From positions 2,859-66,858 of the forward strand of contig CAZOFJ010000005.1 of the NCBI GenBank assembly GCA_964579005.1: DNA of 64,000 nucleotides. The letters are read 5' to 3'. Shown one piece after another: positions 1-21,581 of the stretch (positions within the stretch are counted from its first letter, which is position 1; each line of letters opens with the position of its first letter). The stretch comes from an uncultured Nitrospirota bacterium (GTDB taxonomy: Bacteria; Nitrospirota; Nitrospiria; SBBL01; Manganitrophaceae). Under the pieces are notes generated by a model that had not been told where the DNA came from, made no database searches, and saw only the letters and a list, made by a program, of their open reading frames with translations. Both the position numbers and the translations under genes were made by a program.

Positions 1-2139
1 ATCGGATTGAGCCTGGACGGGGTCGACACATTCGAGGCGGTGAAGATCAAGGAGATCAAGGGAAACACCGTGGTTCTCACCGAACCGGTCAAAAAGAGCC
101 ACAAGAAAGGGTCGATTGCCAGCACGGAGTTCGTCCGCTACCGGTGGTATCCCGATGTGGACCTCGGGCTGGTTTTCTGGCATGACCATGTCTTCGGTCT
201 CGACGGCTGGGGCCATGGATTATTTGCCTCCCTTATCGTTGAGCCAACCGGGTCGACCTATCATGACCCGGTGACCGGAAAAGAGGTCCGAAGCGGAACC
301 GTCGTCGACATTCACACCACCGACCCGGTCTCCGCCAAGGTCTCGGGAAGCTTCCGGGAAATCGTGATGCAAACGATGGATTCCAACCCGAGAACCGCCG
401 AGCTGATTACGGCCGACAACCCGATGGCGGGAAGACCTTCCGTCGATGGGACCCCATCGGCCGTCTATCCTTCACGGCTGAACAAGTCGGCGATGACCTA
501 CCTCAACGGTGGGGAAGCGACGACGGGTGGAGGGTTTGGATTGCGGGTGGAGCCCCTTTCGGTCCGGCTCGCCAACAACCCCGATCCTTCGCAACTTTTC
601 TCCAGCAAGGTCCACAAGGATCCCGAAACGCCGCTCGTCAAGGCGTATTTGGGGGATCCGATCGTCTTCAGGCACATCGGGTGCTGCAACGAGGTTCACA
701 CATGGCATGTCAGCGGCCACTGGTTCCCGATGGAGCGGTACAACGCTGATTCCCTGCCGCGTACCTCCTTCCACATTACCATCGGAGAGCGGCTGGATAT
801 GGTGATCCCGGCTGCCGGAGGCCCGCAGAAGATGGCGGGAGATTACCTCTACTACTCCGGACGGGCGTCTCATTTTTCCGGAGGGGCCTGGGGGCTGATC
901 CGTGTCATGGATAAAGCAGATAAGTCCCTTCAACCGCTTCCGTCGCGGGAAGAGATTCCTGCCTCGGCCAAAGAGCTCTGTCCTTCCGATGCCCCAGTGA
1001 AAAACTTCAGCGTGTCGGCGATTGATTACGCCATGAAGTTCAACAAAGGGGTTCCGGAAGCAATGGAGGTTGATCTGGGCCGAAAACTCTCACTTGGCAA
1101 CGGGAATGGTAAGGTCTACGTTCTCGATGACGAGGTCACCAAGGTCAAGGGAGGGATGCTGCAACCCAATCCGTTGACCCTCCGGGTGAATGTCGGCGAT
1201 TGCATCAAGATCAAGCTGACCAACCGGATGGCCAAGGAGCGGGCCGGGCTCCATGCCGATATGCTGGCATTCGATCCGAAAGACTCCTACGGGGTCAACG
1301 TCGGAAACAACCCCGGCGATCAGACGGTGGCTCCCGGGCAGAGCAAGAGCTACACCTTCTATGCCCATCCGGAGTATGGCGAGAATGGTGCCCTGATCCA
1401 AGACTGGGGGAACGTCGTCGACAATCCCAGAAACGGTCTCTATGGCGCCATCATCATCGGTCCCAAGGGGTCGAAGTATCGTGACCCTGCCACGGGCGAG
1501 GATATTTCGCTGAAGAACGCCTGGCAAGCCGATGTGATCGTTGACCGGACTGTTCCGGGGAACGAAAACAAGAAGAACTATCGGGACTTCGCCCTGATGT
1601 TCCAGGATGAAGACAACCTGATGGGGACCAGCTTCATGCCGTATGCCCAGAAGATCGGCGGGTTGACCGGGGTGAACTACCGGGCCTCCATGCCGATGGA
1701 CTTTGCGCTGGAAAACGGCTGCTCTGTCGGAACAATCTTTCAGTGTGTCTCGGAGAAGGGGGGTATTAATACCCCGATCATCGAGGCACACGCGGGAGAT
1801 TCGGTCCTGATGCATGTCTTCGGGGCCTTCAACGAGCAGGTCGCGGTCTTTGCCTTGGACGGACATGAGTGGGCGGTCGACAAATTCCGAGGAGCGCATC
1901 TCCACAGCTCCTTCGAGTTCGGCGGCAGCTCCTATCTCCGTGTTGATCTACGGGGAGGGGCCGGTGGACCTCATCAGCTTCCGGGAGACTATGTCTACAT
2001 GAACCATCGTCCGGCCTATACTGACGCCGGCCAATGGGGTCTCGTGCGGGTGCTGCCAAAGGGGGACAAGAAAATCTTGGCCCTGAACCCGGTCGATTCA
2101 GATATCCGGACCGTCTCCGTCGGCTCGAACGACCGGTAA
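1..2139 (+). CDS. Giant multicopper-oxidase (MCO)-like protein, C-terminal ~710 aa; 5' end outside window
   Basis: Frame 1 is open from base 1, so the TTG at 7 in the ORF track is only a formal start. It has His-rich copper-site-like motifs FWHDHVFGLDGWGHG and HTWHVSGH. It is colinear with, and roughly four-fifths identical by eye to, the last ~710 aa of the 14190..19016 product. TAA at 2137-2139 is followed by a hairpin terminator. Confidence 0.8.
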   Translation: MGLSLDGVDTFEAVKIKEIKGNTVVLTEPVKKSHKKGSIASTEFVRYRWYPDVDLGLVFWHDHVFGLDGWGHGLFASLIVEPTGSTYHDPVTGKEVRSGTVVDIHTTDPVSAKVSGSFREIVMQTMDSNPRTAELITADNPMAGRPSVDGTPSAVYPSRLNKSAMTYLNGGEATTGGGFGLRVEPLSVRLANNPDPSQLFSSKVHKDPETPLVKAYLGDPIVFRHIGCCNEVHTWHVSGHWFPMERYNADSLPRTSFHITIGERLDMVIPAAGGPQKMAGDYLYYSGRASHFSGGAWGLIRVMDKADKSLQPLPSREEIPASAKELCPSDAPVKNFSVSAIDYAMKFNKGVPEAMEVDLGRKLSLGNGNGKVYVLDDEVTKVKGGMLQPNPLTLRVNVGDCIKIKLTNRMAKERAGLHADMLAFDPKDSYGVNVGNNPGDQTVAPGQSKSYTFYAHPEYGENGALIQDWGNVVDNPRNGLYGAIIIGPKGSKYRDPATGEDISLKNAWQADVIVDRTVPGNENKKNYRDFALMFQDEDNLMGTSFMPYAQKIGGLTGVNYRASMPMDFALENGCSVGTIFQCVSEKGGINTPIIEAHAGDSVLMHVFGAFNEQVAVFALDGHEWAVDKFRGAHLHSSFEFGGSSYLRVDLRGGAGGPHQLPGDYVYMNHRPAYTDAGQWGLVRVLPKGDKKILALNPVDSDIRTVSVGSNDR

Positions 2140-2165
2140 GGTCGGAGGAGATGGACGGGAGTCCT

Positions 2166-2208
2166 AAAAAAACAAGGAGGGGCCTAAAAAACCCCTCCTT
2201 GTTTTTTG
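2166..2208 (+). terminator. Rho-independent terminator of the upstream MCO-like gene
   Basis: Stem ACAAGGAGGGG (2172-2182) / CCCCTCCTTGT (2192-2202), 9-nt loop, T-run. The same stem sequence recurs after the paralog at 19045-19075. Confidence 0.8.
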
Positions 2209-2274
2209 GACGATCGTCATCCGACTCGAGAAGAGGGGGTCATTTCCCAAATCTGATTGAAATGGGGTTTGAAG

Positions 2275-2832
2275 ATGGAGCAGAGTAAGAAAGATAAGAC
2301 GGTTGATGAAAAAAGGGGTCCGACGGAACTGTTAAAAGAGGAACACCAGACCACCCTTCTCAAACTCGACCTCATGGAACGTTCGCTCCACTATCTCTCC
2401 AAACCATCCGTAGAAACCGCTCTCGACCGGGTTGAGGTAGAGAAGCTCCTCCTAAAAGATCTGGCTGTTGCAATTGAAAAAGAGATTGCCCTTCACTTCC
2501 GAAAGGAGGAAGGGGCTCTCTTTCCGGTCCTTGCCGAATATATTGGGAAGGAACATGGAGCGATCGAAGCGATGCTCCATGAACATGAAAAAATCCTCAC
2601 CACCTTCTTCCATTGGAAAAAGACTCTTCCTCCTTTTTGCAGGAGCATCGAGCCGATTGACGAAGGTCTTCGAAAAGCGGTCATTGATCCTGGACTCAAG
2701 GTCATCGGCCTCCTCCGACAACATATCGGAAAGGAAGACGAAATTCTCTTTAAAATCTCCGAGGCCTCCTTGACGGAGAGAGAAAAAGGAGACCTCGCCG
2801 AAAAATTAAAAAGCATGGATAAAATGTCATAG
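2275..2832 (+). CDS. Hemerythrin / HHE cation-binding domain protein (185 aa)
   Basis: ATG at 2275 gives the N-terminus MEQ..., the same as the paralog at 21607. It shows the His/Glu ligand pattern typical of hemerythrin-like domains (EEHQ, HFRKEE, HEHEKI, HIGKEDE). An upstream TTG at 2257 is also possible. Confidence 0.75.
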   Translation: MEQSKKDKTVDEKRGPTELLKEEHQTTLLKLDLMERSLHYLSKPSVETALDRVEVEKLLLKDLAVAIEKEIALHFRKEEGALFPVLAEYIGKEHGAIEAMLHEHEKILTTFFHWKKTLPPFCRSIEPIDEGLRKAVIDPGLKVIGLLRQHIGKEDEILFKISEASLTEREKGDLAEKLKSMDKMS

Positions 2833-2942
2833 TTTTTCCTCTCACTTGCAGCCTCAACACTGTCTATCAGATGTCGATCGTTGACTGAGCCTTTGGATCA
2901 TCAGACACGCCTCGCCTCGGTAAAGCCCGAGGGCACTTCTCT

Positions 2943-2980
2943 ATAAAAAAAAGGAGTTAGCCGGTGTGCGCTAACTCCTT
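2943..2980 (-). terminator. Displaced original terminator of tRNA-Ala
   Basis: Read on the minus strand: 11-bp stem AAGGAGTTAGC/GCTAACTCCTT (2951-2961 / 2970-2980), 8-nt loop, then a T-run (plus-strand A-run 2945-2950). It starts 8 nt after the distal copy of the tRNA 3' end. Confidence 0.75.
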
Positions 2981-2988
2981 GATGATTT

Positions 2989-3033
2989 TGGTGGAGCTGA
3001 GGGGGATCGAACCCCTGACCCCAAGACTGCCAG
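2989..3033 (-). repeat. Distal att repeat: exact copy of the 3'-terminal 45 nt of tRNA-Ala
   Basis: TGGTGGAGCTGAGGGGGATCGAACCCCTGACCCCAAGACTGCCAG is identical to 11222..11266. Identity extends 3 more T residues (2986-2988 = 11219-11221). The sequences diverge immediately beyond 3033. Confidence 0.95.
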
Positions 3034-3146
3034 AATGTTGCTCTCGCCTACATTAATTCCTTCCTATTGCTTTTCTCTTGCATTATCAACTGTTTCACGA
3101 TACCTTAATTCTTGTGGATTACGACAAAGTACCCTCTATTTCTCCC

Positions 3147-3171
3147 TCTACTGCCTACACCATGCCTACAC
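3147..3171 (+). promoter_or_regulatory. Candidate integrase arm-type binding site (left copy)
   Basis: The 25-mer TCTACTGCCTACACCATGCCTACAC is identical to 11132..11156. It contains TGCCTACAC twice, 11 bp apart, and lies 37 nt upstream of the int ATG. Confidence 0.5.
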
Positions 3172-3207
3172 GGGGCGGACACAAGGCTATCCCAAGAAGG
3201 TATCACG

Positions 3208-4401
3208 ATGAATCTGACAAAGAGAATCATAGATCAAACGGCGTGTCCTGAGAGCGGTCAAATCTTCCTTCGGGACAAATCGCTCCCAGGTTTCGGGGTC
3301 CGACTGACAAAGGGGGCGAAGACGTTCATCCTCGAAAAACGAATCAACGGAAGAAATAAAAGGATGGTGATCGGCCCCTATGGTCCTTTGACCGTCGATG
3401 AAGCGAGAAAGAGAGCGGAGAAGCTGATCGGGCGGATTGCATCGGGAGAAGATCCGGCCGAGGAAAGATCCGAGAAGCGGAAAGAGGCGGCATTCAAAGA
3501 CCTGGCGGCGGCGTACCTGGACTATGCGCGGATTCACAACCAACCATCGGCGAAGAATTTTGAGTACGCCATCAACCGGCATCTTCTCCCCGCATGGGAG
3601 AACCGGAAGGTGACGGCGATCAGCAAGGCGGACGTGTCGGCGCTTCATTCCAGGATCGGGAAGGATCATCCTTACGGGGCAAATCGATTGCTGGCGCTGA
3701 TTGGCCGGATATTCTCCCTGGCGGTCGAGTGGGGATACACCCCGGAGGATCACCAGAATCCGGCGCGAGGGATTCAGAAATTCAAGGAGCAATCGCGCGA
3801 GCGATGGGTGACGGAATCGGAGCTTCCGAAACTTGCGGCGGCGATCAACAAAGATCCGAATCCGTTCGTCAAGGCGGCGCTCTGGTTATATCTTTTGACG
3901 GGATGTAGAAAGAATGAGTTGTTTTCTGCGAAGTGGGAGCAAGTCGATTTTGACCGAGCGGAATTAAGACTCCCGAAGACGAAGGCGGGGCGGTCGCACT
4001 ATATCCCCCTCTCCGAGCCCGCTATCCGAATCCTTCGGGCGCTCCCTCGATTCGAGAACAACCCCCATGCCTTCCCCGGCCGCTTTCCGGGCCGACCTCT
4101 GCAAGGGATACGGCGCCATTGGGACGCGGTGAAGAAAGAGGCGGGGCTCCCCGACGTTCACATTCACGACTTGCGGCGGACCCTGGGGTCATGGTTGGCA
4201 ACATCGGGCGAATCTTTGAACCTCATCGGGAAGATCCTCAATCACAGTACCCCGAGGGTGACGGCGATCTACTCCCGCTTATCGGAGAACAAGGTCAAGA
4301 CGGCTCTGGAAGATCATGGCCGGCGGCTGCTGGCGGCGGCAGAGGTAAAGGAAGATCCGGCTGAAAAAATGGTCGATGCGCTGTGGAGGGCGAAGCAATG
4401 A
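3208..4401 (+). CDS. int: Tyrosine recombinase / phage integrase (P4-like, with N-terminal arm-binding domain)
   Basis: The N-terminus LTKRIIDQ...FLRDKSLPGFGVRLTKGAKTFILEKRINGR is typical of the integrase arm-binding (DUF4102-type) domain. The C-terminal catalytic signature is HDLRRT...LNHSTPRVTAIYSR (R-H-R-Y type). GAAGG lies 7 nt before the ATG at 3208. The gene is adjacent to the att repeat. Confidence 0.9.
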   Translation: MNLTKRIIDQTACPESGQIFLRDKSLPGFGVRLTKGAKTFILEKRINGRNKRMVIGPYGPLTVDEARKRAEKLIGRIASGEDPAEERSEKRKEAAFKDLAAAYLDYARIHNQPSAKNFEYAINRHLLPAWENRKVTAISKADVSALHSRIGKDHPYGANRLLALIGRIFSLAVEWGYTPEDHQNPARGIQKFKEQSRERWVTESELPKLAAAINKDPNPFVKAALWLYLLTGCRKNELFSAKWEQVDFDRAELRLPKTKAGRSHYIPLSEPAIRILRALPRFENNPHAFPGRFPGRPLQGIRRHWDAVKKEAGLPDVHIHDLRRTLGSWLATSGESLNLIGKILNHSTPRVTAIYSRLSENKVKTALEDHGRRLLAAAEVKEDPAEKMVDALWRAKQ

Positions 4402-5090
4402 GCCGACCCAAGAAAGTGTCGTCCGCCGAGGAGTGGCGGCGAGCGGGGCTCCCGCCGGAAGTCCTATCTGAAGAGCTTGCGGCGGAAAAGCGCATCCGCA
4501 CATCTATTGAGGTGAAGAAGGCGGTTGAATCCCTGATCGATCGAGGGCTCCCAAGAGAGGGCGTCAATTCCATCATCAAAAACGCTCCGGGGATTATCTC
4601 AGATTTTAAGCTGCGGGTCGGCGGGGCTACTCTGGCGGAGCGGCGGAAGCGAGATAGGAAATTGGCGGCGCTCTTCCGGAGGGCAATCCCCCTATTAGAA
4701 TCCTATGGCGGCGGCGGTGAGGCTCACTTTCTCGTATTCATGTCCGCTATCGCAGAATCAGTAAAGCCGGATGATCCTACCCTCCCGCTCCCGTGGCCGT
4801 TGGCGAAGATGCTCAATCTCTATGTTTTCTGGCTCACCAATGCAGGGAGTTTCTCCCCGTATCAAAATATTCAGGCGGGGCGGCCTAGAAAAGCGAAGGG
4901 GCCAAGCGGGCTTACTATCTATGCCGTGCAGCGAATTCATTTCTCGCTGATCGAGCTCGGAAAGCGGGAAGGGATTCGGCGATCCCAGACCGGTTTCGGC
5001 GTTCCAAGCTATAATCAGGAGACGGCCGCTATCGTCTCCGCCCTTCTCTCCAAAAAAATCACTCCCAATTTCGTCTGCAAAAATTCTTAA
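4398..5090 (+). CDS. Hypothetical protein (230 aa), island-encoded
   Basis: Its ATG overlaps the int stop (ATGA at 4398-4401), suggesting translational coupling. No recognisable motif. Confidence 0.5.
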   Translation: MSRPKKVSSAEEWRRAGLPPEVLSEELAAEKRIRTSIEVKKAVESLIDRGLPREGVNSIIKNAPGIISDFKLRVGGATLAERRKRDRKLAALFRRAIPLLESYGGGGEAHFLVFMSAIAESVKPDDPTLPLPWPLAKMLNLYVFWLTNAGSFSPYQNIQAGRPRKAKGPSGLTIYAVQRIHFSLIELGKREGIRRSQTGFGVPSYNQETAAIVSALLSKKITPNFVCKNS

Positions 5091-5106
5091 TCTCCCTCCC
5101 CCTGCG

Positions 5107-5153
5107 GTGCCGATTCGATAATTAAAATATCATAATCGGCACGTTTTCTTTTT
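5107..5153 (+). terminator. Rho-independent terminator after the int operon
   Basis: Stem GTGCCGATT (5107-5115) / AATCGGCAC (5134-5142), followed by GTTTTCTTTTT. Confidence 0.6.
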
Positions 5154-5220
5154 GCTGACTCGTTTCGATGTAAAGTTGCTCCGTGATGCTCAAGCTTTCT
5201 TAATTTTCGCGGAGGTAGCT

Positions 5221-5415
5221 ATGAATCTCGTGAACGAAAACGGCGCAGGGAATTTCCTCAATGTTTCTGTTCGATCTCTTCAACAATGGCGCGTAAGAGG
5301 ATACGGCCCAAGGTTTATTAAAATCGGCAGACTGGTGCGGTATAGCTTGGATGATCTCCGGGACTGGGTTGAATCGCAGAGGCGGACCTCAACCTCAGAT
5401 CCTGGAAAGGGATAG
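5221..5415 (+). CDS. AlpA / excisionase-family helix-turn-helix protein (64 aa)
   Basis: GGAGG lies 5 nt before the ATG at 5221. The sequence FLNVSVRSLQQWRVRGYGPRFIKIGRLVRYSLDDLRDWV matches the MerR-like excisionase/AlpA HTH pattern. Confidence 0.7.
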   Translation: MNLVNENGAGNFLNVSVRSLQQWRVRGYGPRFIKIGRLVRYSLDDLRDWVESQRRTSTSDPGKG

Positions 5416-5422
5416 GTGACCG

Positions 5423-6835
5423 ATGGCGCGGCGCGGTAAAGACCCCATCGAGCAGCCTCCTCCTCATTCAATCGAGATCGAGCAGGCGTGTCTTGGTTCG
5501 ATCTTTCTGATGGAGGAGAGTCAGGTCCTCGACATTCTCCCAACGATCGATAACTCGCTATTTTATCGGCAATCTCATCGGATTCTGATTGAGGCGATCA
5601 AGGAACTGAGAAACGGTGACTATCTTCTCATTTGCTCTCACCTCCGCGAGAAAGGGCTGCTCGATCAGGCCGGCGGGGTCTCATACCTCGGTGAGATTTT
5701 AAATTCAACAACAACTTGGCGAAACATCCGCTTATACGTGAAGACGCTCCGCGAGTTGGAGGTGAAACGACGGATCGAGACCATCCTTTTATCGCGTCTT
5801 GACGAAAACCGCAACGGGACCCCGGCGGGGGATCTGATCCGGGATCTCTCCGGGGAACTGCAGGGGATCTCTGAGGAATCAAGGACCATTCCTCATCTTT
5901 CTCAATGCCTACTCACGCCAGAGATGTTGAAAACTATCAATATACCGAAACGGGAAGATATTATTGAGCGAGTTCTCCCCACGCAATCGCTTATGATGGT
6001 GAATGCCCAACGGGGTAAGGGTAAGACGTGGCTCGCGCTCGGGATAGCAAGAGCATGTGCGATTGGAGAAGGGACCTTCCTGGGATGGGCGATAAAGCGG
6101 AAAGCGAACGTGCTCTATATCGACGGAGAAATGCCCCTTTCCGATATGCGAGAGCGGATCAACCAACTCGAAATCCCTGGGAAAAATTTCCTCCTCCTCT
6201 CGGCCGAGTGGATGATCGTCAACGGAATTCAGCGGTGTTTGAATATCGCCGATCTGGAAGGGCAAGACGCGCTCGATAAAGTGATTGCGGACTTATCCCG
6301 GGGCGGATTTAGGCCCGACGTCCTGATTCTCGATAACCTCTCCGCTTTAATTCGTGGGATAAAGCAAAACGACAATGATGAATGGGACGGCATTAACGGA
6401 TGGTTTATCCGGAAGCGACATAATGGCCTTTCTGTAATCGTCCTCGACCATGCAGGGAAGGATGAGACGCGGGGGTCAAGGGGAGCCAGCCGGAAAGAAG
6501 ATGTCATGGACACGATCATTCAACTTTCGGAGGTGAAGGGCGCCGAACCGGATGAATGCCGATTCACGATCGAATTTACGAAGACCCGAGGCCGGAAACC
6601 TTCCCCGATGAAATTCGTTGCTTCGCTGAGGGGGGCAGACTTCACGACGGAGGAGATGGACACGAGCAAGCTTGACGAACTGGTTCGGCTGGTCAATGAG
6701 GGTGTGGAGCGGCAATCTTTTATTGCCCTCGAACTGAGGATCAGCCCGGCACATGTCTCAAGGCTCGCAAAGAAGGCCGTTGAGCAGGGGTTGATCCGAA
6801 GAATCGGGACTCGCTTGGAACCGACTCCGAAATGA
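5423..6835 (+). CDS. Replicative helicase-like protein: DnaB N-terminal domain + RepA/AAA_25-type ATPase + C-terminal HTH
   Basis: PPHSIEIEQACLGSIFL is the classic DnaB N-terminal start. Walker A is AQRGKGKTW and Walker B-like is VLILDNLSAL. The C-terminal stretch ISPAHVSRLAKKAVEQGLI is HTH-like. Confidence 0.75.
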   Translation: MARRGKDPIEQPPPHSIEIEQACLGSIFLMEESQVLDILPTIDNSLFYRQSHRILIEAIKELRNGDYLLICSHLREKGLLDQAGGVSYLGEILNSTTTWRNIRLYVKTLRELEVKRRIETILLSRLDENRNGTPAGDLIRDLSGELQGISEESRTIPHLSQCLLTPEMLKTINIPKREDIIERVLPTQSLMMVNAQRGKGKTWLALGIARACAIGEGTFLGWAIKRKANVLYIDGEMPLSDMRERINQLEIPGKNFLLLSAEWMIVNGIQRCLNIADLEGQDALDKVIADLSRGGFRPDVLILDNLSALIRGIKQNDNDEWDGINGWFIRKRHNGLSVIVLDHAGKDETRGSRGASRKEDVMDTIIQLSEVKGAEPDECRFTIEFTKTRGRKPSPMKFVASLRGADFTTEEMDTSKLDELVRLVNEGVERQSFIALELRISPAHVSRLAKKAVEQGLIRRIGTRLEPTPK

Positions 6836-6984
6836 AAGTTACCTGTTACCTCCCCATAGAGGGGGAGGAGGTAACTTTCAGGATGTTACCTGAGAAAGTT
6901 ACCTGGTAAGAGTAGGAAAATCAACAGTTTACAAGAAAAAGTTACCTGAAAGTTACGTTACATGGCATGGATGAAAAGTTACTC
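6835..6984 (+). repeat. Iteron cluster, candidate island replication origin
   Basis: AAAGTTACCTG occurs at 6835, 6895 and 6938. Shorter copies are GTTACCTG at 6885, AAAGTTACG at 6949 and AAAGTTAC at 6975. There is one inverted copy, GGTAACTTT, at 6870. The cluster starts at the last base of the helicase stop codon. Confidence 0.6.
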
Positions 6985-7169
6985 ACTGAAAACCATTAGG
7001 AAACCATCTTTCTCCACCTCGCGTCCTCCCCCCGGAAGAGTACCGGCGCGGGAAGGCGGAGCGGAGACGGAGGCAATTCGGGCAGAGGGAGGAAAAGAGA
7101 CATGGAGTTATCGAGAGGAGAGACTTTATACAACGGGGCGGCGGAGTTTTTAAAAAAGGAGAGGGAAAA

Positions 7170-7460
7170 ATGACAAAAAAAGAGTGGGACCCGATGTTTT
7201 TACCCCGCCTGGACGGGCCGTGTGAGGAGTGCCTTTCGACCCGGGCCGAAAGAAACAGCATGTGGATTCTGATTTACTGTGAGCATCGGCAGTCGGCGGC
7301 GTCAATGTTGGTCGGCCCGGATGGAAAGCTGATTCCAATGTGGCGGATCTTCACGCCGATCGGTCGGGAGGACTTCGAGGTCATCCGAGAGACGATGTTG
7401 CTGGAGTTGAAGCGATTAAAAACCACTCTGACCGGAAAAAAAGAACCGGATGAGAAATAA
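7170..7460 (+). CDS. Hypothetical protein (96 aa), island-encoded
   Basis: Strong SD AGGAGAGGG upstream of the ATG at 7170. No recognisable motif. Confidence 0.5.
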   Translation: MTKKEWDPMFLPRLDGPCEECLSTRAERNSMWILIYCEHRQSAASMLVGPDGKLIPMWRIFTPIGREDFEVIRETMLLELKRLKTTLTGKKEPDEK

Positions 7461-7465
7461 CCCCC

Positions 7466-7494
7466 TTGACCCCGGAAGACTTTCTAAGTATAAT
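7466..7494 (+). promoter_or_regulatory. Near-consensus sigma-70 promoter upstream of the capsid module
   Basis: TTGACC (7466-7471), 17-nt spacer, TATAAT (7489-7494). Confidence 0.6.
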
Positions 7495-7616
7495 TCGTTT
7501 CACAAGCGCAAGGAAAGCGCTCTTTCAACCTTCGATGGGGACATCGGGGGCACATATTTTCATTCCACTCTCTGCCGTCCGGGAACGGAGACGCGGGGGG
7601 TCAAGGAGTCGCGGAA

Positions 7617-7682
7617 GCGCCTCCGGGAAAGCATGACATTCCTTTTCGGGATTGTCCTGTCTTACCGGAGGCGCTTTTTTTT
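7617..7682 (+). terminator. Hairpin + T8 terminator inside the leader of the capsid gene
   Basis: GCGCCTCCGG (7617-7626) pairs with CCGGAGGCGC (7665-7674) and is followed by T8 (7675-7682). It lies about 120-180 nt downstream of the 7466 promoter and 45 nt upstream of the capsid ATG. Confidence 0.55.
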
Positions 7683-7727
7683 GGCCTTCGGCAAGCCGCA
7701 ATCATAAAATCATCATGAGGGAAGACT

Positions 7728-14189: not shown

Positions 14190-17100
14190 ATGAATAAAAC
14201 GAGAAAAATGGGAGGGGACATGCATACCGAAGGAAAATGTCTTTGGAAGAAGATAGGATTTGCTTTCTTATTGATTCTTTTAATGCAGGGGCGCGTCCTT
14301 GCCGAGGAGGCAACGCACCACGACATGCAGGAAATGGTGCAACAAATGGGGATGCCGGAGCGAGGAGCACCGAGCCCGGTGCCGGCCGGAACCATCTCTC
14401 AAAAGGCCGGGACGGAAATGATGAATCGGATGATGAACCGGCTTGATCAAGAAATCGATCGGGCGGGAGGGAAACTCGGAGGGTTTACCGCAGGCAGCCA
14501 AGCGCATGCGACAATGCAAGGAATCCCTCTCCAGATCAGTAATGAGGAGTCGGTGAAACAGGGGGGACGCTGCCCGGACGCGGCCCCGGTGAAGACGTTC
14601 GACATCTCGGCTGTCAACGTGGAGATCACCTTGAGCCGCTTTCTCGACTATTTTCCGGGATACCTTTACGTCCTGACGGAAGAACTCGATCAGGTCCGGG
14701 CGGAGGAGGCGAAGAACAAGGCGGCCCGTGAGAGCAACGATCCCTACCCGGCTGCGGCGGTCTCCACGGGACAACAGGGAGACATGATCGCCCCGTTGAC
14801 CATTCGGGCCAACGCGGGGGATTGTGTCCGGATTACGCTGCGGAATAAGCTGGAGAGCGAGGAGCCGGTCAGCTTCCATCTCCACGGTTCGAACCTCATC
14901 GTGAAAACGAGCGGCCAAGCGGCGACGATGACCAACAAGGACGCGCTCGTCGCCCCCGGAAAGTTTCAAGAATTCGAGTGGTACATCCCGGCTGACGAGC
15001 AGGACAAGGCACATCAATTCCACAGTCATGCGATACGGGAACATTGGAACCTTGGGATGTTCGGCTCTCTGGTGGTGGAGCCGCGCGGCTCTCGGTATCT
15101 CAACCCCTGGACGGGCAAGGAGTTGAAGAGCGGCTGGATGGCGATGATCGATTCCACAGACGGCCCCGACTTCAGGGAGTTCGCTGTTTGGTATCATGAG
15201 ATCGGCGATGAGGTCTTTCGGATTTTAGACAAGAAAGGAGAAATGCTTGGACAGCGCGATCCGGTGACCGATGCTTACCGTCCCGGCGGCCGAGGTCTAA
15301 ACCTCCGAAGCGAGCCGCATGGCACCCGCCTGGCCCTTCAGGTGGAGCGCCACGGAATTCACGACGAGTCGATGGCCTACGGCTCCTACACCTTCGGTGA
15401 TCCGGCCACGATGATTCCCCGCTCTTACGTCGGCGATCCGGTCAAGTTCCGGATGATGGGGGGATCGGAGACGATCCACTCCCACCACCTCCACAGCGGG
15501 GCGGGGGCCCGGTGGCCCCTCTCGCCGAACGCCGTCACCAAGGCGGAGTTCGACTTCGCCGCCACCCGAAACGGGACCGGTCCGGTGAAGTTCCCCCCGA
15601 TCCGGACCTCTTCGGAGCGGGTCGACGTCCAATCGATCGGCGCCGCGGAGTCTTACAATCAGGAGATCGAATGCGGTTCCGGCGGCTGCCAGTACGGGGC
15701 CGGAGACCATGTCTACCACTGCCATATCCCGCAACATTATGTTACCGGGATGTGGGCCTTCTGGCGGGTCTATAACACGCTGCAGACCGCCGACTCCAAA
15801 GATGATGTGATGCCACCGCTGGCCGAGCTCCCCGATCGGAAGGGGATGCAGAAGCTGTCGGTCGATTCCGCCAAGCTGGTCGGAACCACGGTTGACTGGT
15901 TCGGCGGGACGGCGTACAAGATCACCTCCGGCGCGAGCAACTGGAAGGCGAACCCGCCCGAGGTCAACATCAAGGAGTGGGTGCAGATGATGCTTCCGCC
16001 GCAGGGGCTCCCCGGTGGAACGGAAGACGAGCACAAACAAGCGGTCTCCCACGACGGCTCGGTCTTCGACTGGAAGTGGGATGGAAATACCGCGCTGCAC
16101 GAGCCGGAGACGAAGCAGGTCTGGGTCAATTACAAGTCGGCAAATCCCGGGAAGCGGCTTCCGTTCCGGTTTGATCCGAAAACGGGGAAGCTCTCGATCC
16201 CCTGGAACCGGCCTCACCTTGGCAAGCGGGTTAACTTCACCCCGGAACACAACGGGGCGCCGTTCTTAGAGCCGATTCGCCGGATCGCCGGCGACACCGA
16301 GCCGGCGACCCCCGGCGAGCAGGGGCCGTGGAGCCTCTGCCCCGACCGGTCGCCGCGAAAGGCATACACCGTCAACGGGATCGAGCTTCCGATTACCCTG
16401 AAGAAGGCAACCGCCAAGACACCGGCAATTGTCGATCCGGACGGCCTTCTCTATGTTCTTGAAGATCAGGAGGCCGCGATCCGGGCCAACGACGATCTGA
16501 AAAACCCGTTGGTGATCCGGGCCAACGTCTACGACTGCGTCGACGTCATCTACAAGAGCAAGATGAGTGACAGCGGGCGGACGGTCTGGTCGAACAAGAC
16601 CAACATCCACCCCCACTTCTTCCAGTTCGATATCACCGCCTCCGACGGGGTGATTGTCGGCTTCAACTGGGAGCAGTCGGTCCGTCCCTTCACCATCATG
16701 AAAGCGACCGATAAGGAAAAGGGGCATGAGCATGACGGCTTGCCCGTCCCGCAGAACACCCGTCTGGCGAAGGCGGCGAAGGCGGGGGACACCTCGGTTG
16801 AAATCGAATCGAACGTCCGGCATATCGATATCCACGGGACGAAGTTCGACGCCCCGATCTTCCAGACGGGTGTCACCTTCGGCCTGGACCTCGACGGGGT
16901 GGACGAGTTCGAGGCGGTCAAGGTCAAGGAGATCAAGGGGAACACCGTTGTCCTGACCCGGCCGTTGAAAAAGAACCATAAGAAAGGGGGGATCGCCAGC
17001 GTCGAATTCGTCCGTTATCGCTGGTATCCCGATGTTGATCTGGGGATTGTCTTCTGGCACGATCACGTCTTCGGTCTCGACGGCTGGGGGCATGGGTTCT

Positions 17101-19016
17101 TCTCGGCCACGGTGGTCGAGCCCCCCGGGTCGACCTATCACGACCCGACCACCGGCAAGGAGATCCGGAGCGGCCATATCGCCGACATCCACACCACCGA
17201 CCCGGTCGGTCATGCCGTCAAGGGGAGCTTCCGGGAGCTGGTCAGCTTCGTCGTCGACTCGAATCCGAGAACATCCGAGCTGATCACCGCTGACAATCCG
17301 ATGGCGGGGAGACCTTCCGTCGACGGTACCCCGTCGGCGAAATATCCGGCGCGGCTCAACAAATCGGCGATGGCCTTCCTCAACGGAGGGGAGGCGACGA
17401 CCGGGGGAGGATACGGAATGCGGGCGGAGCCGCTTTCGGTGCGGCTCGCCAATAACCCCGATCCATCGAAGCTCTTCTCCAGCAAGGTCCACGGCGATCC
17501 GGAAACCCCCATTCTCAGAGCCTACCTGGGAGACCCGATCGTTGTCCGGCTCCAACAGGGGTCGGCCAACGAGGCCCACACCTGGCACCTCAGCGGGCAC
17601 TACTTCCCGCTGGAGCGCTACAATCCGGATTCCAAGGCTCGCAACACCATGCACATCATCATTGGCGAGCGGTTCAACTTCGTCATCCCCGCCGCCGGAG
17701 GCCCGCAGAAGATGGCGGGGGATTATCTCTACTACTCCGGCCGCGCCTCTCATTTCGCCGAGGGATCGTGGGGAATGATCCGGGTTTTGGACAAACCGGA
17801 TAAGAACCTTCGGTTCCTGCCGTCGCGGGAGGAAATCCCCGCTTCGGCGAAAGAACTCTGCCCGGCGGATGCCCCCGTGAAGGAGTTTGGTGTCTCGGCG
17901 ATTGACCATGCCATGAAGTTCAATAAGGAAGTGCCTGAAGCGATCGAAGTCGATCTCGGACGAAAGCTCTCCCTCGGCAACCAGAGCGGGAAAGCCTATG
18001 TCCTCGACGATGAAGTGACCAAAGTGAAAGGGGGGATGCTACAACCCAATCCATTGACCCTTCGGGTGAACGTCGGCGATTGCATCAAGATCAAGCTGAC
18101 CAACCGGATGGCCAAGGAGCGGGCCGGCTTCCATGCCGACATGCTCGCCTTCGATCCGAAAGACTCGATGGGGATCAACGTCGGAAACAACCCCGGTGAT
18201 CAAACGGTGGCTCCGGGGCAGAGCAAGACCTACACCTTTTACGCCCATCCGGAATATGGCGAGAACGCCGCCCTGATCCAAGACTGGGGGAATGTCGTCG
18301 ACAATCCCCGGAATGGATTGTACGGCGCCATCGTTGTTGGTCCGAAGGGATCGAAGTACCGTGATCCCGCCACCGGAGCGGATATCAGCACGAAGAACGC
18401 CTGGCAAGCCGATGTGATCGTCGACCGGGGCATTCCGGGGAACGAGAACAAGGAGAACTACCGGGACTTCGCCCTGATGTTCCAGGAAGAAGACAACCTG
18501 ATGAACACCTCCTTCATGCCGTATGCCCAGAAGATCGGGGGACTGATCGGGGTGAATTATCGGGCTGCCATGCCGATGGACCATGCCTTGGAGGTCGGCT
18601 GCAATGTCGGGATGATCTTCCAATGCGTGTCGGAAAAGGGTGGCGTTGCCACGCCCATCATCGAGGCCCATGCGGGAGACAAAGTCCTGATCCATGTCTT
18701 GGGAGCGTTTATGGAGCAGGTCGGGGTCTTCGCCTTGGACGGGCATGAGTGGCCGGTCGACAGCTTCAAAGGGGCGCATCAACACAGCGCCTTTGAATTC
18801 GGGGGGAACTCCTACCTCCGGATCGATCTCCGGGGCGGAGCTGGCGGACCGCATCAGTTGCCGGGAGACTATGTCTACATGAACCATCGTCCGGCCTATG
18901 CCGACGCCGGGCAATGGGGATTGCTTCGGGTATTGCCGAAAGGCGACAAAAGCATCCAAGCGCTCAACCCGATAAACACAGAGGTTCGGCCCGTCTCCGT
19001 CGGTTCCAATGACTGA
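14190..19016 (+). CDS. Giant secreted multicopper-oxidase-like protein (1608 aa)
   Basis: Sec-type signal peptide (KKIGFAFLLILLMQGRVLA), then a Met/His-rich stretch. The four canonical MCO motifs occur in order in the N-terminal half (FHLHGSN, FHSHAI, IHSHHLHSG, HCHIPQHYVTGMW). A second set lacking the HCH Cys ligand is in the C-terminal half (IHPHFF, FWHDHVFG, HTWHLSGH). The start is uncertain (ATG 14190, 14208 or 14220). Confidence 0.85.
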   Translation: MNKTRKMGGDMHTEGKCLWKKIGFAFLLILLMQGRVLAEEATHHDMQEMVQQMGMPERGAPSPVPAGTISQKAGTEMMNRMMNRLDQEIDRAGGKLGGFTAGSQAHATMQGIPLQISNEESVKQGGRCPDAAPVKTFDISAVNVEITLSRFLDYFPGYLYVLTEELDQVRAEEAKNKAARESNDPYPAAAVSTGQQGDMIAPLTIRANAGDCVRITLRNKLESEEPVSFHLHGSNLIVKTSGQAATMTNKDALVAPGKFQEFEWYIPADEQDKAHQFHSHAIREHWNLGMFGSLVVEPRGSRYLNPWTGKELKSGWMAMIDSTDGPDFREFAVWYHEIGDEVFRILDKKGEMLGQRDPVTDAYRPGGRGLNLRSEPHGTRLALQVERHGIHDESMAYGSYTFGDPATMIPRSYVGDPVKFRMMGGSETIHSHHLHSGAGARWPLSPNAVTKAEFDFAATRNGTGPVKFPPIRTSSERVDVQSIGAAESYNQEIECGSGGCQYGAGDHVYHCHIPQHYVTGMWAFWRVYNTLQTADSKDDVMPPLAELPDRKGMQKLSVDSAKLVGTTVDWFGGTAYKITSGASNWKANPPEVNIKEWVQMMLPPQGLPGGTEDEHKQAVSHDGSVFDWKWDGNTALHEPETKQVWVNYKSANPGKRLPFRFDPKTGKLSIPWNRPHLGKRVNFTPEHNGAPFLEPIRRIAGDTEPATPGEQGPWSLCPDRSPRKAYTVNGIELPITLKKATAKTPAIVDPDGLLYVLEDQEAAIRANDDLKNPLVIRANVYDCVDVIYKSKMSDSGRTVWSNKTNIHPHFFQFDITASDGVIVGFNWEQSVRPFTIMKATDKEKGHEHDGLPVPQNTRLAKAAKAGDTSVEIESNVRHIDIHGTKFDAPIFQTGVTFGLDLDGVDEFEAVKVKEIKGNTVVLTRPLKKNHKKGGIASVEFVRYRWYPDVDLGIVFWHDHVFGLDGWGHGFFSATVVEPPGSTYHDPTTGKEIRSGHIADIHTTDPVGHAVKGSFRELVSFVVDSNPRTSELITADNPMAGRPSVDGTPSAKYPARLNKSAMAFLNGGEATTGGGYGMRAEPLSVRLANNPDPSKLFSSKVHGDPETPILRAYLGDPIVVRLQQGSANEAHTWHLSGHYFPLERYNPDSKARNTMHIIIGERFNFVIPAAGGPQKMAGDYLYYSGRASHFAEGSWGMIRVLDKPDKNLRFLPSREEIPASAKELCPADAPVKEFGVSAIDHAMKFNKEVPEAIEVDLGRKLSLGNQSGKAYVLDDEVTKVKGGMLQPNPLTLRVNVGDCIKIKLTNRMAKERAGFHADMLAFDPKDSMGINVGNNPGDQTVAPGQSKTYTFYAHPEYGENAALIQDWGNVVDNPRNGLYGAIVVGPKGSKYRDPATGADISTKNAWQADVIVDRGIPGNENKENYRDFALMFQEEDNLMNTSFMPYAQKIGGLIGVNYRAAMPMDHALEVGCNVGMIFQCVSEKGGVATPIIEAHAGDKVLIHVLGAFMEQVGVFALDGHEWPVDSFKGAHQHSAFEFGGNSYLRIDLRGGAGGPHQLPGDYVYMNHRPAYADAGQWGLLRVLPKGDKSIQALNPINTEVRPVSVGSND

Positions 19017-19040
19017 TAGGCGGCCTCTTCAATAAGCAAT

Positions 19041-19081
19041 AAAAACAAGGAGGGGTCTCGAAAGCCCCTCCTTGTTTTTTG
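19041..19081. terminator. Rho-independent terminator after the MCO gene (shared with the convergent gene)
   Basis: Stem ACAAGGAGGGG (19045-19055) / CCCCTCCTTGT (19065-19075), then a T-run, with an A-run on the other side. The stem sequence is identical to that of 2172-2202. Confidence 0.8.
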
Positions 19082-21128: not shown

Positions 21129-21581
21129 ATGTTTTGGATGATTTTAATTTGGATCCATATCCTTGCGGCGATGTTTTGGATCGGAGGGATGCTCTTCTTC
21201 TCGATGGTCTTGGTCCCTTCCCTTCTCGGACTTCCCAGCGAGCAGCGTACCGAGCTGATCAGCCGGATCGGTCAACGGTTTCGCAAGGCAGGCTGGATCT
21301 CGCTAGGCATCCTCCTGGTCACCGGGCTTCTCCAGGTCTATCATCTCGGCTTGCCGGTGTTCATGGAGGGGTGGCTCTGGGCCAAGCTGTCGATGGTCAT
21401 CCTCATGGTCTCCCTCACCCTTCTTCACGATTTCGTCCTCGGTCCCCGGGCTGTTGAGATCAGCCGCGCCAACCCCGGCCCCCGTTCCCTCCGGGGTACG
21501 GTCCGGTGGTTGCCCCGATTGAATCTGGTGGTGGGGATCCTTGTCGTTTTGGCCGCCGTTTATGTCGCCCGCGGGTACTGA
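21129..21581 (+). CDS. Four-TM membrane protein, CopD-like (family assignment tentative)
   Basis: Four predicted TM helices. The first helix, IHILAAMFWIGGMLF, resembles the CopD / copper-resistance-D signature. Confidence 0.45.
   Translation: MFWMILIWIHILAAMFWIGGMLFFSMVLVPSLLGLPSEQRTELISRIGQRFRKAGWISLGILLVTGLLQVYHLGLPVFMEGWLWAKLSMVILMVSLTLLHDFVLGPRAVEISRANPGPRSLRGTVRWLPRLNLVVGILVVLAAVYVARGY

What the first reader, a model, noticed from the sequence alone, without database searches (positions are those of the whole stretch)
1..19081. Two paralogous giant (about 1600-aa) two-module multicopper-oxidase-like genes
Seen:
- One complete 1608-aa ORF, with a Sec-type (not twin-arginine) signal peptide followed by a Met/His-rich stretch (HHDMQEMVQQMGMPE...TEMMNRMMNRL).
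- The last ~710 aa of a second copy at the window start.
- The N-terminal half of the complete protein carries the four canonical MCO copper motifs in order: FHLHGSN, FHSHAI, IHSHHLHSG, HCHIPQHYVTGMW.
- The C-terminal half carries a second set without the Cys ligand (IHPHFF, FWHDHVFG..GH, HTWHLSGH), plus repeated DY.Y......G.WG.(I/L)RV strands.
- The copies share long runs of identical DNA (e.g. around 1190-1250 versus 18070-18130), the same terminator stem, and a neighbouring hemerythrin paralog.

Established: ordinary bacterial MCOs (CueO, CotA) are ~500 aa. The few characterised MCOs well above 1000 aa (MnxG, MofA) are Mn(II) oxidases.

Inference: these are candidate extracellular metal (Mn/Fe/Cu) oxidases with a non-standard domain architecture, duplicated and possibly homogenised by gene conversion.
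Basis: partly seen in the sequence, partly recalled or inferred. Interest (0 to 1): 0.7.

Follow-up and report, generated by a model that had tools for sequence, protein, structure and literature searches.

The report
Paired MnxG-type six-domain copper oxidase genes
The two giant genes are real, anciently duplicated members of a known but never biochemically tested family of manganese-oxidase-like copper enzymes found throughout Nitrospirota, here in a relative of the manganese-eating Manganitrophus, so this is a well-anatomised ordinary case rather than a new kind of protein.

Summary
The interpretation needs correcting.

- **Architecture.** The protein has three tandem modules, giving six cupredoxin domains (d1-d6). 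That is the architecture of Bacillus MnxG and ceruloplasmin, not two modules.
- **Catalytic centre.** The only copper ligands invariant across the family are the His/Cys motifs of d2 plus the two HxH motifs of d3. Bacillus MnxG keeps the same set.
- **Extra His cluster.** They are kept only together with His1566 in d6, in Manganitrophaceae-type lineages. Nitrospira copies have lost them.
- **Distribution.** At least 569 loci in GTDB species genomes encode relatives. The best 80 are all Nitrospirota, often as same-strand tandem pairs.
- **Duplication.** It is old: 79% amino-acid and 59% third-codon-position identity, and each copy has its own orthologs. Gene conversion is limited to short tracts inside a roughly 300-nt stretch.
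- **Regulation.** A sigma-54 type promoter motif lies upstream.
- **Prior literature.** Lücker 2013 and Yu 2022 already noted these oxidases. Their substrate is untested; Mn(II) is the best guess.

The parts
1..2139 (+). Copy A: last 712 codons plus stop, covering part of d3 and all of d4-d6. The full protein is P0129, 1591 aa.
   Evidence: Translation. 100% identical to P0129 residues 880-1591. Pfam Cu-oxidase_3 hit.
1130..1420 (+). Stretch of copy A containing candidate gene-conversion tracts with copy B (B coordinates about 18010-18300). It includes the 56-nt identical run at 1192-1247.
   Evidence: A-B identity here is 0.86-0.94, equal to or above the identity of A to its own orthologs. 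A and B share the derived string ACGGTGGCT at A nt 1326. The site-pattern segment 1326-1425 gives permutation p = 0.0002.
2167..2207 (+). Intrinsic terminator hairpin after copy A
   Evidence: Folding energy -30.6 kcal/mol, z -4.98. Repeat family D6.
2257..2832 (+). Hemerythrin-domain protein downstream of copy A
   Evidence: Pfam PF01814, E = 3e-11. The same gene follows the oxidase in L001, L002 and L003.
14045..14060 (+). Sigma-54 type -24/-12 promoter motif GGGCATCCCTTTTGCT, 145 nt upstream of the copy B ORF
   Evidence: Found. The strict motif occurs upstream of 10 of 52 family genes, against 0 on the reverse strand and 0.05 per set in shuffles. It is also present upstream of the A orthologs L002, L006 and L008_up.
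14190..19016 (+). Copy B: complete MnxG-type multicopper oxidase gene. The ORF is 1608 aa; the likely start at 14220 gives 1598 aa.
14220..14303 (+). Sec-type signal peptide, residues 11-38, with cleavage predicted after VLA
   Evidence: Read from the sequence. There is no twin-arginine motif. Most relatives have similar N-termini.
14304..14444 (+). His/Met-rich N-terminal tail. H43 and H44 are about 90% conserved.
   Evidence: Low model confidence (pLDDT) in this region.
14562..15209 (+). Cupredoxin domain d1, residues about 125-340. It carries H230/H232 and H278/H280, which are variable ligand-position residues.
   Evidence: Pfam Cu-oxidase_3 covers 197-299. Secondary structure from the model. 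Conservation 64-96%.
15285..15785 (+). Cupredoxin domain d2, residues about 366-532. Blue-copper (T1) ligands are H430, C511, H516 and M521. Trinuclear-centre (TNC) ligands are H433, H435, H510 and H512.
   Evidence: All are 99-100% conserved (M521 seen in every sequence). They align to the two-domain laccase ligand motifs and to MnxG 281-345.
15795..16355 (+). Family-specific linker domain of about 185 aa between d2 and d3
   Evidence: Folded with pLDDT 80-94. The query that contains it finds 311 representative proteins, mostly 1000-3800 aa.
16356..17264 (+). Cupredoxin domain d3, residues 723-1025. It carries invariant H807/H809 and H957/H959, and a beta-rich insertion of about 100 aa at residues 835-935.
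   Evidence: Conservation. Insertion relative to d1, d5 and MnxG. Model.
17442..17789 (+). Cupredoxin domain d4, residues about 1085-1200. The site is degenerate: H1130, H1133, H1137 and H1188 remain, with no Cys.
17853..18494 (+). Cupredoxin domain d5, residues about 1222-1435
   Evidence: Pfam Cu-oxidase_3 hits the equivalent region of copy A.
18537..18944 (+). Cupredoxin domain d6, residues about 1450-1585. It carries H1566, which occupies the position of H512, and H1530/H1532.
   Evidence: H1566 is present in 64 of 65 sequences with a full d1 His set and in 1 of 62 without.
19041..19081 (+). Intrinsic terminator hairpin after copy B
   Evidence: Folding energy -27.7 kcal/mol, z -5.21.
20544..21107 (+). 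Acireductone-dioxygenase-like cupin (ARD), also found downstream of copy B orthologs
   Evidence: Pfam PF03079, E = 4e-30. ARD lies downstream of the oxidase in L004 and L005.
21129..21581 (+). CopD/DUF4149-like four-helix membrane protein
   Evidence: Pfam hits. It is adjacent to the oxidase in L001-L003. In strain Mn1 it is co-expressed with the oxidase, r = 0.97.
21541..22164 (+). Second hemerythrin paralog, 71% identical to the one at 2257-2832

Best explanation
The window comes from a Candidatus Manganitrophaceae (Nitrospirota) genome. It carries two old paralogs of a large periplasmic multicopper oxidase of the MnxG type.

Shown:
- Each protein is a Sec-exported chain of three tandem two-cupredoxin modules, giving six domains (d1-d6).
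- Its nearest solved relative is the Bacillus Mn(II) oxidase MnxG.

Inferred architecture:
- There is a single catalytic unit. A blue (T1) copper in d2 is bound by H430, C511, H516 and M521.
- A trinuclear copper cluster sits at the d2/d3 interface. It is bound by H433, H435, H510 and H512 of d2 and by H807, H809, H957 and H959 of d3.
- The enzyme takes single electrons from a metal substrate near the T1 site and reduces O2 to water at the cluster.
- The three conserved Cys pairs form disulfides.
- Copper is loaded in the periplasm, possibly helped by the His/Met-rich N-terminal tail and the neighbouring CopD-like membrane protein.

Inferred substrate and role:
- The substrate is most likely Mn(II), oxidised to Mn(III).
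- The role is more likely protective or conditional (handling O2 or reactive oxygen species, or depositing Mn oxide) than energy-conserving.

Inferred regulation:
- Transcription is inducible from a sigma-54 promoter.

Other features:
- Manganitrophaceae-type members, including both copies here, keep an additional Cys-less His cluster: four His in d1 plus H1566 in d6. By its position this is a relic trinuclear site at the d6/d1 interface and may still bind metal.
- The duplication predates the divergence of several species. Later exchange between the copies is limited to short tracts.
For: Family and fold:
- Pfam Cu-oxidase_2 and Cu-oxidase_3 hits.
- phmmer against PDB finds MnxG 9bxa_A at E = 2e-101, in stretches covering all parts of the protein.
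- AlphaFold2 models have pLDDT 72.5 for residues 100-1200 and 83.8 for residues 700-1608.
- Foldseek finds 9bxa_A at E = 1.5e-42 and 5.4e-64 (query-normalised TM-score up to 0.66), followed by the six-domain proteins ceruloplasmin and factors V and VIII.
- The three-fold internal repeat is visible in a direct alignment.

Ligands:
- The d2 and d3 ligands are 99-100% conserved in 127 relatives. The d1 ligand-position residues are 64-96% conserved.
- Bacillus MnxG has HxH motifs only in its d3, and has the HxxHxH and HCH motifs in its d2.
- The d2 motifs align to two-domain laccase ligands.
- A full d1 His set co-occurs with H1566 in 64 of 65 sequences, against 1 of 62 without it.

Organism and distribution:
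- The identical protein is annotated as Candidatus Manganitrophaceae.
- At least 569 GTDB loci encode relatives. The best 80 are all Nitrospirota.
- Thirteen loci carry a same-strand tandem pair.

Age of the duplication:
- The copies are 79% identical in amino acids and 59% identical at third codon positions.
- In a neighbour-joining tree A groups with L002, L006 and L008_up, and B groups with L004 and L007.

Regulation:
- The sigma-54 motif is strongly enriched upstream of family genes.
- A PAS sigma-54 activator lies next to the oxidase in L001-L003.
- In Ca. M. noduliformans Mn1 the oxidase varies 62-fold across Mn-oxidising cultures. It co-varies with the activator (r = 0.96) and with the CopD-like gene (r = 0.97).

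Literature:
- Lücker 2013 (PMC3578206) described this periplasmic oxidase in Nitrospina and Nitrospira as MnxG-like.
- Yu 2022 (PMC9040806) reports 'two novel MCOs each' in Manganitrophaceae.
Against: - No member of this family has been assayed, so the substrate is inferred only from 21-23% structural identity to MnxG.
- The score against NCBIfam's MnxG equivalog model is 129 bits, against a cut-off of 3100.
- No mnxE- or mnxF-like accessory genes flank copy B.
- The family is near-universal in Nitrospira, which is not known to oxidise Mn. This argues for a more general role.
- Placement of the cluster at d2/d3 rests on conservation and homology, not on measured distances. d2 itself (residues 425-524) was modelled with low confidence.
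- The His co-occurrence statistic is not corrected for phylogeny. It reflects perhaps three or four independent losses.
Confidence: 0.6

Rival explanations
1. The N-terminal half is a self-contained multicopper oxidase that uses its four motifs (d1 plus d2). The C-terminal half is a second, Cys-less, degenerate oxidase module.
For: All four canonical motifs occur in order in residues 229-522. In Manganitrophaceae-type sequences all four d1 histidines are present.
Against: - The protein is a three-fold repeat, not a two-fold one.
- The d1 HxH motifs are missing in every Nitrospira copy and in Bacillus MnxG, yet the d3 HxH motifs are invariant everywhere.
- From established knowledge, in two-domain and six-domain multicopper oxidases the trinuclear cluster lies between an even domain and the next odd domain, as in ceruloplasmin d6/d1. 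The fold search supports that topology here.
Confidence: 0.06
2. The enzymes are periplasmic copper- or iron-homeostasis oxidases, working as a cuprous oxidase or ferroxidase like CueO or ceruloplasmin, rather than as Mn oxidases.
For: - The N-terminal tail is rich in His and Met.
- A CopD-like gene is adjacent and co-expressed.
- A small metal-binding protein (SMBP) gene lies between the Nitrospira tandem copies.
- Weak profile hits to CopA and CueO models.
- The family occurs in organisms that do not oxidise Mn.
Against: - The closest relative by sequence and by fold is MnxG, by a wide margin.
- In CueO the Met-rich segment covers the T1 site. Here it is a disordered N-terminal tail.
- CopD-like and SMBP neighbours are equally expected if they only supply copper to a copper enzyme.
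Confidence: 0.2
3. The oxidase is the primary Mn(II) oxidase of manganese lithotrophy. It passes Mn-derived electrons to periplasmic carriers and the neighbouring Rieske/cytochrome b complex instead of to O2.
For: - The host is a Manganitrophaceae genome.
- Rieske, cytochrome b and cytochrome c genes lie in conserved synteny upstream of the oxidase in L001-L003.
- Expression reaches the 95th percentile in some Mn-oxidising cultures.
- The Manganitrophaceae-type lineages keep an extra His cluster.
Against: - A complete, invariant O2-reducing trinuclear cluster is retained, so electrons would normally go to O2.
- Expression is very low in three of seven Mn-oxidising cultures, which is unlike an essential catabolic enzyme.
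- The same family is present in nitrite oxidisers.
- Yu 2022 favour Cyc2 and a porin-cytochrome complex (PCC) for this role.
Confidence: 0.06
4. The two copies are similar because of a recent duplication, or because of ongoing concerted evolution by gene conversion.
For: - A 56-nt identical run.
- Near-identical terminators.
- A stretch of about 300 nt in which A-B identity is 0.86-0.94, with shared derived bases.
Against: - Overall nucleotide identity is 79% and third-codon-position identity is 59%.
- A is 87% identical in nucleotides to its ortholog L002.
- A and B fall in separate ortholog groups.
- Within the similar stretch, B keeps B-type codons, for example ATG against TAC at A nt 1288.
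- Third-position identity is raised in all pairs in the same regions, which points to shared constraint.
Confidence: 0.1

Closest known systems
MnxG of Bacillus sp. PL-12 (Mnx complex, PDB 9bxa), a Mn(II) oxidase
   Same: - Six cupredoxin domains.
- The HxxHxH and HCHxxxH...M motifs lie in d2 and the two HxH motifs lie in d3. d4 and d6 are degenerate.
- It is the best sequence hit (E = 2e-101) and the best fold hit (E down to 5e-64).
   Different: - About 380 residues longer. It has a linker domain of about 185 aa between d2 and d3, a beta-rich insertion of about 100 aa in d3, and a His/Met-rich tail.
- It keeps ligand-position histidines in d1 and d6 that MnxG lacks.
- No mnxE or mnxF genes are nearby.
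- It is a Sec-exported periplasmic protein of a Gram-negative bacterium, not a spore-coat enzyme.
- Structural identity is only 21-23%.
The 'periplasmic multicopper protein' of Nitrospina gracilis and Ca. Nitrospira defluvii (Lücker 2013), annotated 'mnxG' in Nitrospira genomes assembled from metagenomes
   Same: Same protein family, 52-62% identical, about 1600 aa, often in same-strand tandem pairs.
   Different: The Nitrospira copies have lost H230, H232 and H1566, the d1/d6 His cluster. Their tandem pairs are separated by genes for a CarboxypepD_reg protein and an SMBP.
The 'two novel MCOs' of Candidatus Manganitrophaceae (Yu et al. 2022, gene cluster GC_00000008)
   Same: Same family and same lineage, with two to three copies per genome. 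The surrounding genes match: sigma-54 activator, CopD-like protein and hemerythrin.
   Different: The Ca. M. noduliformans gene that has expression data belongs to a different paralog clade, 52% identical. The window's two copies both belong to the other clade.
Human ceruloplasmin (six-domain ferroxidase)
   Same: A ring of six cupredoxin domains. Fold match at E about 1e-30 with a TM-score of 0.5.
   Different: From established knowledge, ceruloplasmin has T1 copper in d2, d4 and d6, and its trinuclear cluster lies at d6/d1. Here there is a single T1 copper in d2 and the cluster is inferred at d2/d3.
MnxG of Pseudomonas putida (NCBIfam NF041487)
   Same: A large multi-domain multicopper oxidase. 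Local matches around the HCH motif.
   Different: The score is 129 bits against a cut-off of 3100, so this protein is not an equivalog.

Membership tests
Multicopper oxidase superfamily | Cupredoxin-fold domains | tested here: met
   Pfam Cu-oxidase_2 and Cu-oxidase_3 hits above their cut-offs. Foldseek matches to MnxG, ceruloplasmin and laccases.
Multicopper oxidase superfamily | T1 copper ligands: His, Cys, His, with an axial Met | tested here: met
   H430, C511, H516 and M521 align with the two-domain laccase HTFHMH and HCHVQSHSDMGM motifs. They are 99-100% conserved.
Multicopper oxidase superfamily | Eight histidines, in four HxH-type motifs, forming the trinuclear cluster | tested here: met
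   H433, H435, H510 and H512 in d2, and H807, H809, H957 and H959 in d3, are all invariant in 127 sequences. Their spatial clustering was not measured.
Multicopper oxidase superfamily | Copper content and O2-dependent oxidase activity | not testable with these tools
   Needs purified protein.
MnxG-type six-domain Mn(II) oxidase (Bacillus Mnx) | Six cupredoxin domains, with T1 copper in d2 and the HxH motifs in d3 | tested here: met
   Three-fold repeat. Motif-by-motif alignment to 9bxa_A.
MnxG-type six-domain Mn(II) oxidase (Bacillus Mnx) | Accessory mnxE and mnxF genes in the same operon | tested here: not met
   Upstream of copy B there are 560 nt with no co-oriented ORF, and the nearest gene is a divergent GDSL hydrolase. 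A terminator follows the gene directly.
MnxG-type six-domain Mn(II) oxidase (Bacillus Mnx) | Mn(II) to Mn(III/IV) oxidation | not testable with these tools
   No member of the Nitrospirota family has been assayed, according to the papers read.
NCBIfam NF041487, copper_ox_MnxG (Pseudomonas-type equivalog) | Whole-protein score of at least 3100 bits | tested here: not met
   128.8 bits for copy B and 71 bits for the copy A fragment.
Ceruloplasmin-type six-domain oxidase | T1 sites in d2, d4 and d6, with the trinuclear cluster between d6 and d1 | tested here: not met
   Only d2 has the Cys ligand. At the HCH position d4 has YSG and d6 has MNH.
Two-domain laccase (SLAC type) | A chain of about 300 aa with two cupredoxin domains that forms homotrimers | tested here: not met
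   This is a single chain of about 1600 aa containing three such modules. It resembles a fused trimer.

The most novel reading that the evidence does not exclude
The Cys-less histidine cluster at the predicted d6/d1 interface consists of H230, H232, H278 and H280 in d1 and H1566 in d6. In the A/B clade H1530 and H1532 are present as well. It is kept as a unit only in Manganitrophaceae-type lineages and is lost as a unit in Nitrospira. The novel reading is that it is a working second metal site. It could be a second copper centre, or a site that binds Mn or nucleates Mn oxide. Either would adapt this branch of the family to life on manganese and might link the enzyme to manganese lithotrophy.
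Probability: 0.12. Interest if true: 0.75.

Novelty: new member of a known kind. Interest (0 to 1): 0.35.

Why it matters
Candidatus Manganitrophus is the only cultured organism known to grow by oxidising Mn(II). Its Mn-oxidising enzyme has not been identified, and its MnxG-like oxidases have been set aside because a normal multicopper oxidase passes electrons straight to O2.

This analysis offers three things to test:
- A ligand map: one T1 copper plus one trinuclear cluster at d2/d3, and a lineage-specific His cluster at d6/d1.
- A regulatory handle: a sigma-54 promoter, a PAS activator, and a 62-fold swing in expression.
- A paralog and ortholog framework for the family.

The same family is also near-universal in Nitrospira, and a related oxidase is abundant in marine Nitrospina proteomes. 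Settling its substrate would therefore inform models of the Mn, N and O2 cycles. As a genome feature, however, it is already in the literature.

Tried and rejected
- An exact-sequence look-up for contigs encoding P0001 returned nothing, so context came from relatives.
- The paper describing PDB 9bxa and Yu & Leadbetter 2020 are not held in the library. MnxG ligand positions were therefore taken from the alignments, not from the authors.
- Comparing third-codon identity of B with its ortholog L004 was uninformative. B looked closer to the A clade in DNA than to L004, probably because codon usage differs between genomes. I switched to site patterns and multi-ortholog windows.
- The sigma-54 activator inside the window (39942-41291, minus strand) is only 44% identical to the activator linked to the oxidase in L002. 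I do not assign it as the cognate regulator.
- No sigma-70 type promoter was found on the plus strand upstream of copy B.
- Rfam found nothing except tRNA-Ala.
- The cupredoxin-like CarboxypepD_reg partner gene seen beside paralogs in other genomes is absent from this window.
- Relatives that share the linker domain are also not equivalogs of the Pseudomonas MnxG model.


Full report
**Observation**

The sequence features are all present.
- ORF 14190..19016 (+) encodes 1608 aa.
- A GGAGG box lies 5 nt before the ATG at 14220, and the identical public protein P0001 is 1598 aa. Translation therefore probably starts at Met11.
- Window 1..2139 encodes the last 712 residues of a second copy. It is identical to residues 880-1591 of P0129, a 1591-aa protein from the same 68.6-kb contig.
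- Full-length A and B are 79% identical in amino acids.
- The motifs, the 56-nt identical DNA run (1192-1247 versus 18072-18127), the shared terminator hairpin and the two hemerythrin paralogs are confirmed.
- The identical protein is annotated as coming from a Candidatus Manganitrophaceae genome assembled from a metagenome.

**What the protein is**

- Pfam finds Cu-oxidase_2 and Cu-oxidase_3.
- The only strong solved relative is MnxG of the Bacillus Mnx complex (9bxa_A), at E = 2e-101, in stretches that cover all parts of the protein.
- Two AlphaFold2 models were made: residues 100-1200 with pLDDT 72.5, and residues 700-1608 with pLDDT 83.8.
- Their best fold matches are 9bxa_A, at E = 1.5e-42 and 5.4e-64 with a TM-score up to 0.66. 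The six-domain proteins ceruloplasmin and factors V and VIII come next.
- Aligning residues 120-535, 708-1200 and 1215-1600 shows a clear three-fold repeat with 30-33% identity. Each repeat holds an odd and an even cupredoxin domain, and each holds its own invariant Cys pair: C128/C212, C717/C783 and C1224/C1298.
- The architecture is therefore six domains in three modules, not two modules.

Compared with Bacillus MnxG the protein has three additions:
- a folded linker domain of about 185 aa between d2 and d3;
- a beta-rich insertion of about 100 aa in d3;
- a disordered His/Met-rich tail after a Sec-type signal peptide.

The linker is not unique to this genome. A query covering it finds 311 representative proteins, mostly 1000-3800 aa long. 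Those tested are also not Pseudomonas-type MnxG equivalogs.

**Copper sites**

Conservation was measured in 127 relatives that are 50-100% identical to copy B.
- Residues conserved at 99-100% at ligand positions: H430, H432, H433, H435, H510, C511, H512 and H516 in d2, and H807, H809, H957 and H959 in d3. M521 is present in every sequence tabulated.
- The d2 motifs align residue for residue with the T1 and trinuclear ligands of two-domain laccases.
- Bacillus MnxG lacks HxH motifs in its d1. Its only HxH pair is in d3, and that pair aligns with IHPHFF and FWHDHVFG.
- From established knowledge, in two-domain laccase trimers and in ceruloplasmin the trinuclear cluster lies between a T1-bearing even domain and the following odd domain.

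From this I infer a single T1 copper and one trinuclear cluster at the d2/d3 interface. The distances were not measured, and d2 itself was modelled with low confidence.

**A lineage-specific His cluster**

- The four d1 histidines co-occur with H1566 of d6, which occupies the position of H512. The count is 64 of 65 sequences with the full d1 set, against 1 of 62 without it.
- All Manganitrophaceae-type sequences keep the set. The A/B clade also has H1530 and H1532.
- All Nitrospira copies have lost H230, H232 and H1566.
- By its position this is a relic trinuclear site at the d6/d1 interface. Whether it still binds metal is unknown. The statistic is not corrected for phylogeny.

**Distribution and history**

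- A scan of GTDB species genomes found at least 569 loci encoding relatives. The best 80 are all Nitrospirota: Manganitrophaceae, Troglogloeales and Nitrospira.
- Thirteen of the fetched loci carry two same-strand copies 1.4-4 kb apart.
- In a neighbour-joining tree the Nitrospira upstream and downstream copies form two separate old clades.
- Window copy A groups with L002, L006 and L008_up. Copy B groups with L004 and L007. The Ca. Manganitrophus SA1 protein (L001) belongs to a third, more distant clade.
- The A/B duplication therefore predates the divergence of several species.

**Gene conversion**

- Over the shared 710 codons the copies are 78.7% identical in nucleotides and 59% identical at third positions.
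- One stretch stands out, at A nt about 1130-1420 and B nt about 18010-18300. A-B identity there is 0.86-0.94. That equals or exceeds the identity of A to its own orthologs.
- The two copies share derived bases there. A site-pattern segment at 1326-1425 is significant by permutation, p = 0.0002.
- B-type codons persist inside the stretch. Third-position identity is raised in all pairs in the same regions.
- The exchange therefore looks patchy and lies on top of strong shared constraint.

**Context and regulation**

Orthologs of copy A and the Manganitrophus paralog sit in a conserved locus. Its gene order is:
- Rieske / cytochrome b / cytochrome c;
- a TPR protein;
- a PAS sigma-54 activator;
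- the oxidase, with a CopD-like gene on one side;
- a hemerythrin;
- a Crp-type regulator.

In the window, copy A is followed by a terminator and a hemerythrin. Copy B is followed by a terminator, an outer-membrane beta-barrel gene, an ARD cupin, a CopD-like gene and the second hemerythrin. ARD also follows the B orthologs.

- A -24/-12 motif, GGGCATCCCTTTTGCT, lies 145 nt upstream of copy B.
- The strict motif occurs upstream of 10 of 52 family genes, against 0 on the opposite strand and 0.05 per set in shuffles. It is also found upstream of the A orthologs.

Expression values for strain Mn1 come from Table S6 of Yu 2022; the ratio and correlations were computed from them.
- The oxidase ranges 62-fold across Mn-oxidising cultures.
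- It co-varies with the adjacent activator (r = 0.96), the CopD-like gene (r = 0.97) and a CarboxypepD_reg protein (r = 0.84).
- That Mn1 gene belongs to the more distant paralog clade.

**Function**

Shown:
- membership of the multicopper oxidase superfamily;
- MnxG-type architecture;
- a signal peptide of Sec type.

Inferred:
- one-electron oxidation of a metal, most likely Mn(II), at the d2 T1 site, with O2 reduction at the d2/d3 cluster;
- copper loading in the periplasm;
- sigma-54 dependent induction.

The role is probably conditional rather than catabolic, for three reasons:
- the O2-reducing cluster is intact;
- expression is very low in three of seven Mn-oxidising cultures;
- nitrite oxidisers carry the same family.

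A copper- or iron-homeostasis role cannot be excluded.

**Novelty**

- Lücker 2013 described this periplasmic MnxG-like oxidase in Nitrospina and Nitrospira and proposed Mn(III)-based defence against reactive oxygen species.
- Metagenomic studies annotate it as mnxG in Nitrospira and in Nitrospinae.
- Yu 2022 report 'two novel MCOs each' in Manganitrophaceae.

The window therefore holds new members of a known but uncharacterised family. The ligand map, the correlated d1/d6 His cluster and the sigma-54 motif are incremental additions.

Noticed in passing
window 2983-11297: An integrated element of about 8.3 kb sits between the two oxidase genes at tRNA-Ala(GGC) (11222-11297, minus strand). It is bounded by 63-nt direct repeats, 92% identical, at 2983-3045 and 11216-11278. 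It encodes a tyrosine integrase (3205-4401), a DnaB-N/AAA_25 helicase (5423-6835) and a phage capsid-family protein (7728-9524). A HicA/HicB-like pair at 10278-10774 was read by eye only. Its size and gene content resemble a phage satellite or a small prophage remnant.
   Followed up: partly
L017 5959-7778; L032 7882-9739; L008 18945-19877; L001 14985-15914: In Nitrospira tandem pairs, and beside the Manganitrophus-type paralog, the oxidase is accompanied by three genes. One encodes a protein of about 260-310 aa ending in a CarboxypepD_reg domain. That protein carries a conserved C-G-M-H-x-[YF]-M string, which looks like a cupredoxin C-x2-H-x2-M copper loop. The second encodes a small metal-binding protein (SMBP). 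The third encodes an unannotated 203-aa protein. None of these is present in the window.
   Followed up: partly
window 22415-28224: Three tandem paralogous genes of 615-627 aa encode TIG plus BNR/Asp-box beta-propeller proteins. They lie in the most G+C-rich part of the window, at 0.60-0.63.
   Followed up: no
window 31723-33711: A 662-aa protein with a partial match to cytochrome bd oxidase subunit I. This is the 'bd-like' oxidase type discussed for Nitrospira, Nitrospina and Manganitrophus.
   Followed up: no
window 39827-39842 (-) and 39942-41291 (-): The best sigma-54 motif in the window, TGGCATCGTCTTTGCT with one mismatch, lies just downstream of a PAS sigma-54 activator gene, on the same strand. 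That activator is only 44% identical to the oxidase-linked activator of L002. The downstream ORFs are small and unannotated.
   Followed up: partly
window 19096-19674 (-): A 192-aa ORF directly after the copy B terminator, on the opposite strand, has no Pfam match. It may not be a real gene.
   Followed up: no
L008 (OY970371.1, complete Manganitrophaceae chromosome) 7209-18862: This genome carries an A-type copy and a Manganitrophus-type copy in tandem, separated by a PQQ-like beta-propeller gene. This suggests that the ancestral locus held both paralog types, and that the window genome may have a third copy elsewhere.
   Followed up: partly
window residues 845-885 of copy B (nt about 16722-16844): Part of the d3 insertion, including H846, H848, H878 and H882, is present in only 27-36 of 127 relatives. 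It is an extra segment of about 40 residues, rich in histidine, that is specific to the A/B clade.
   Followed up: no
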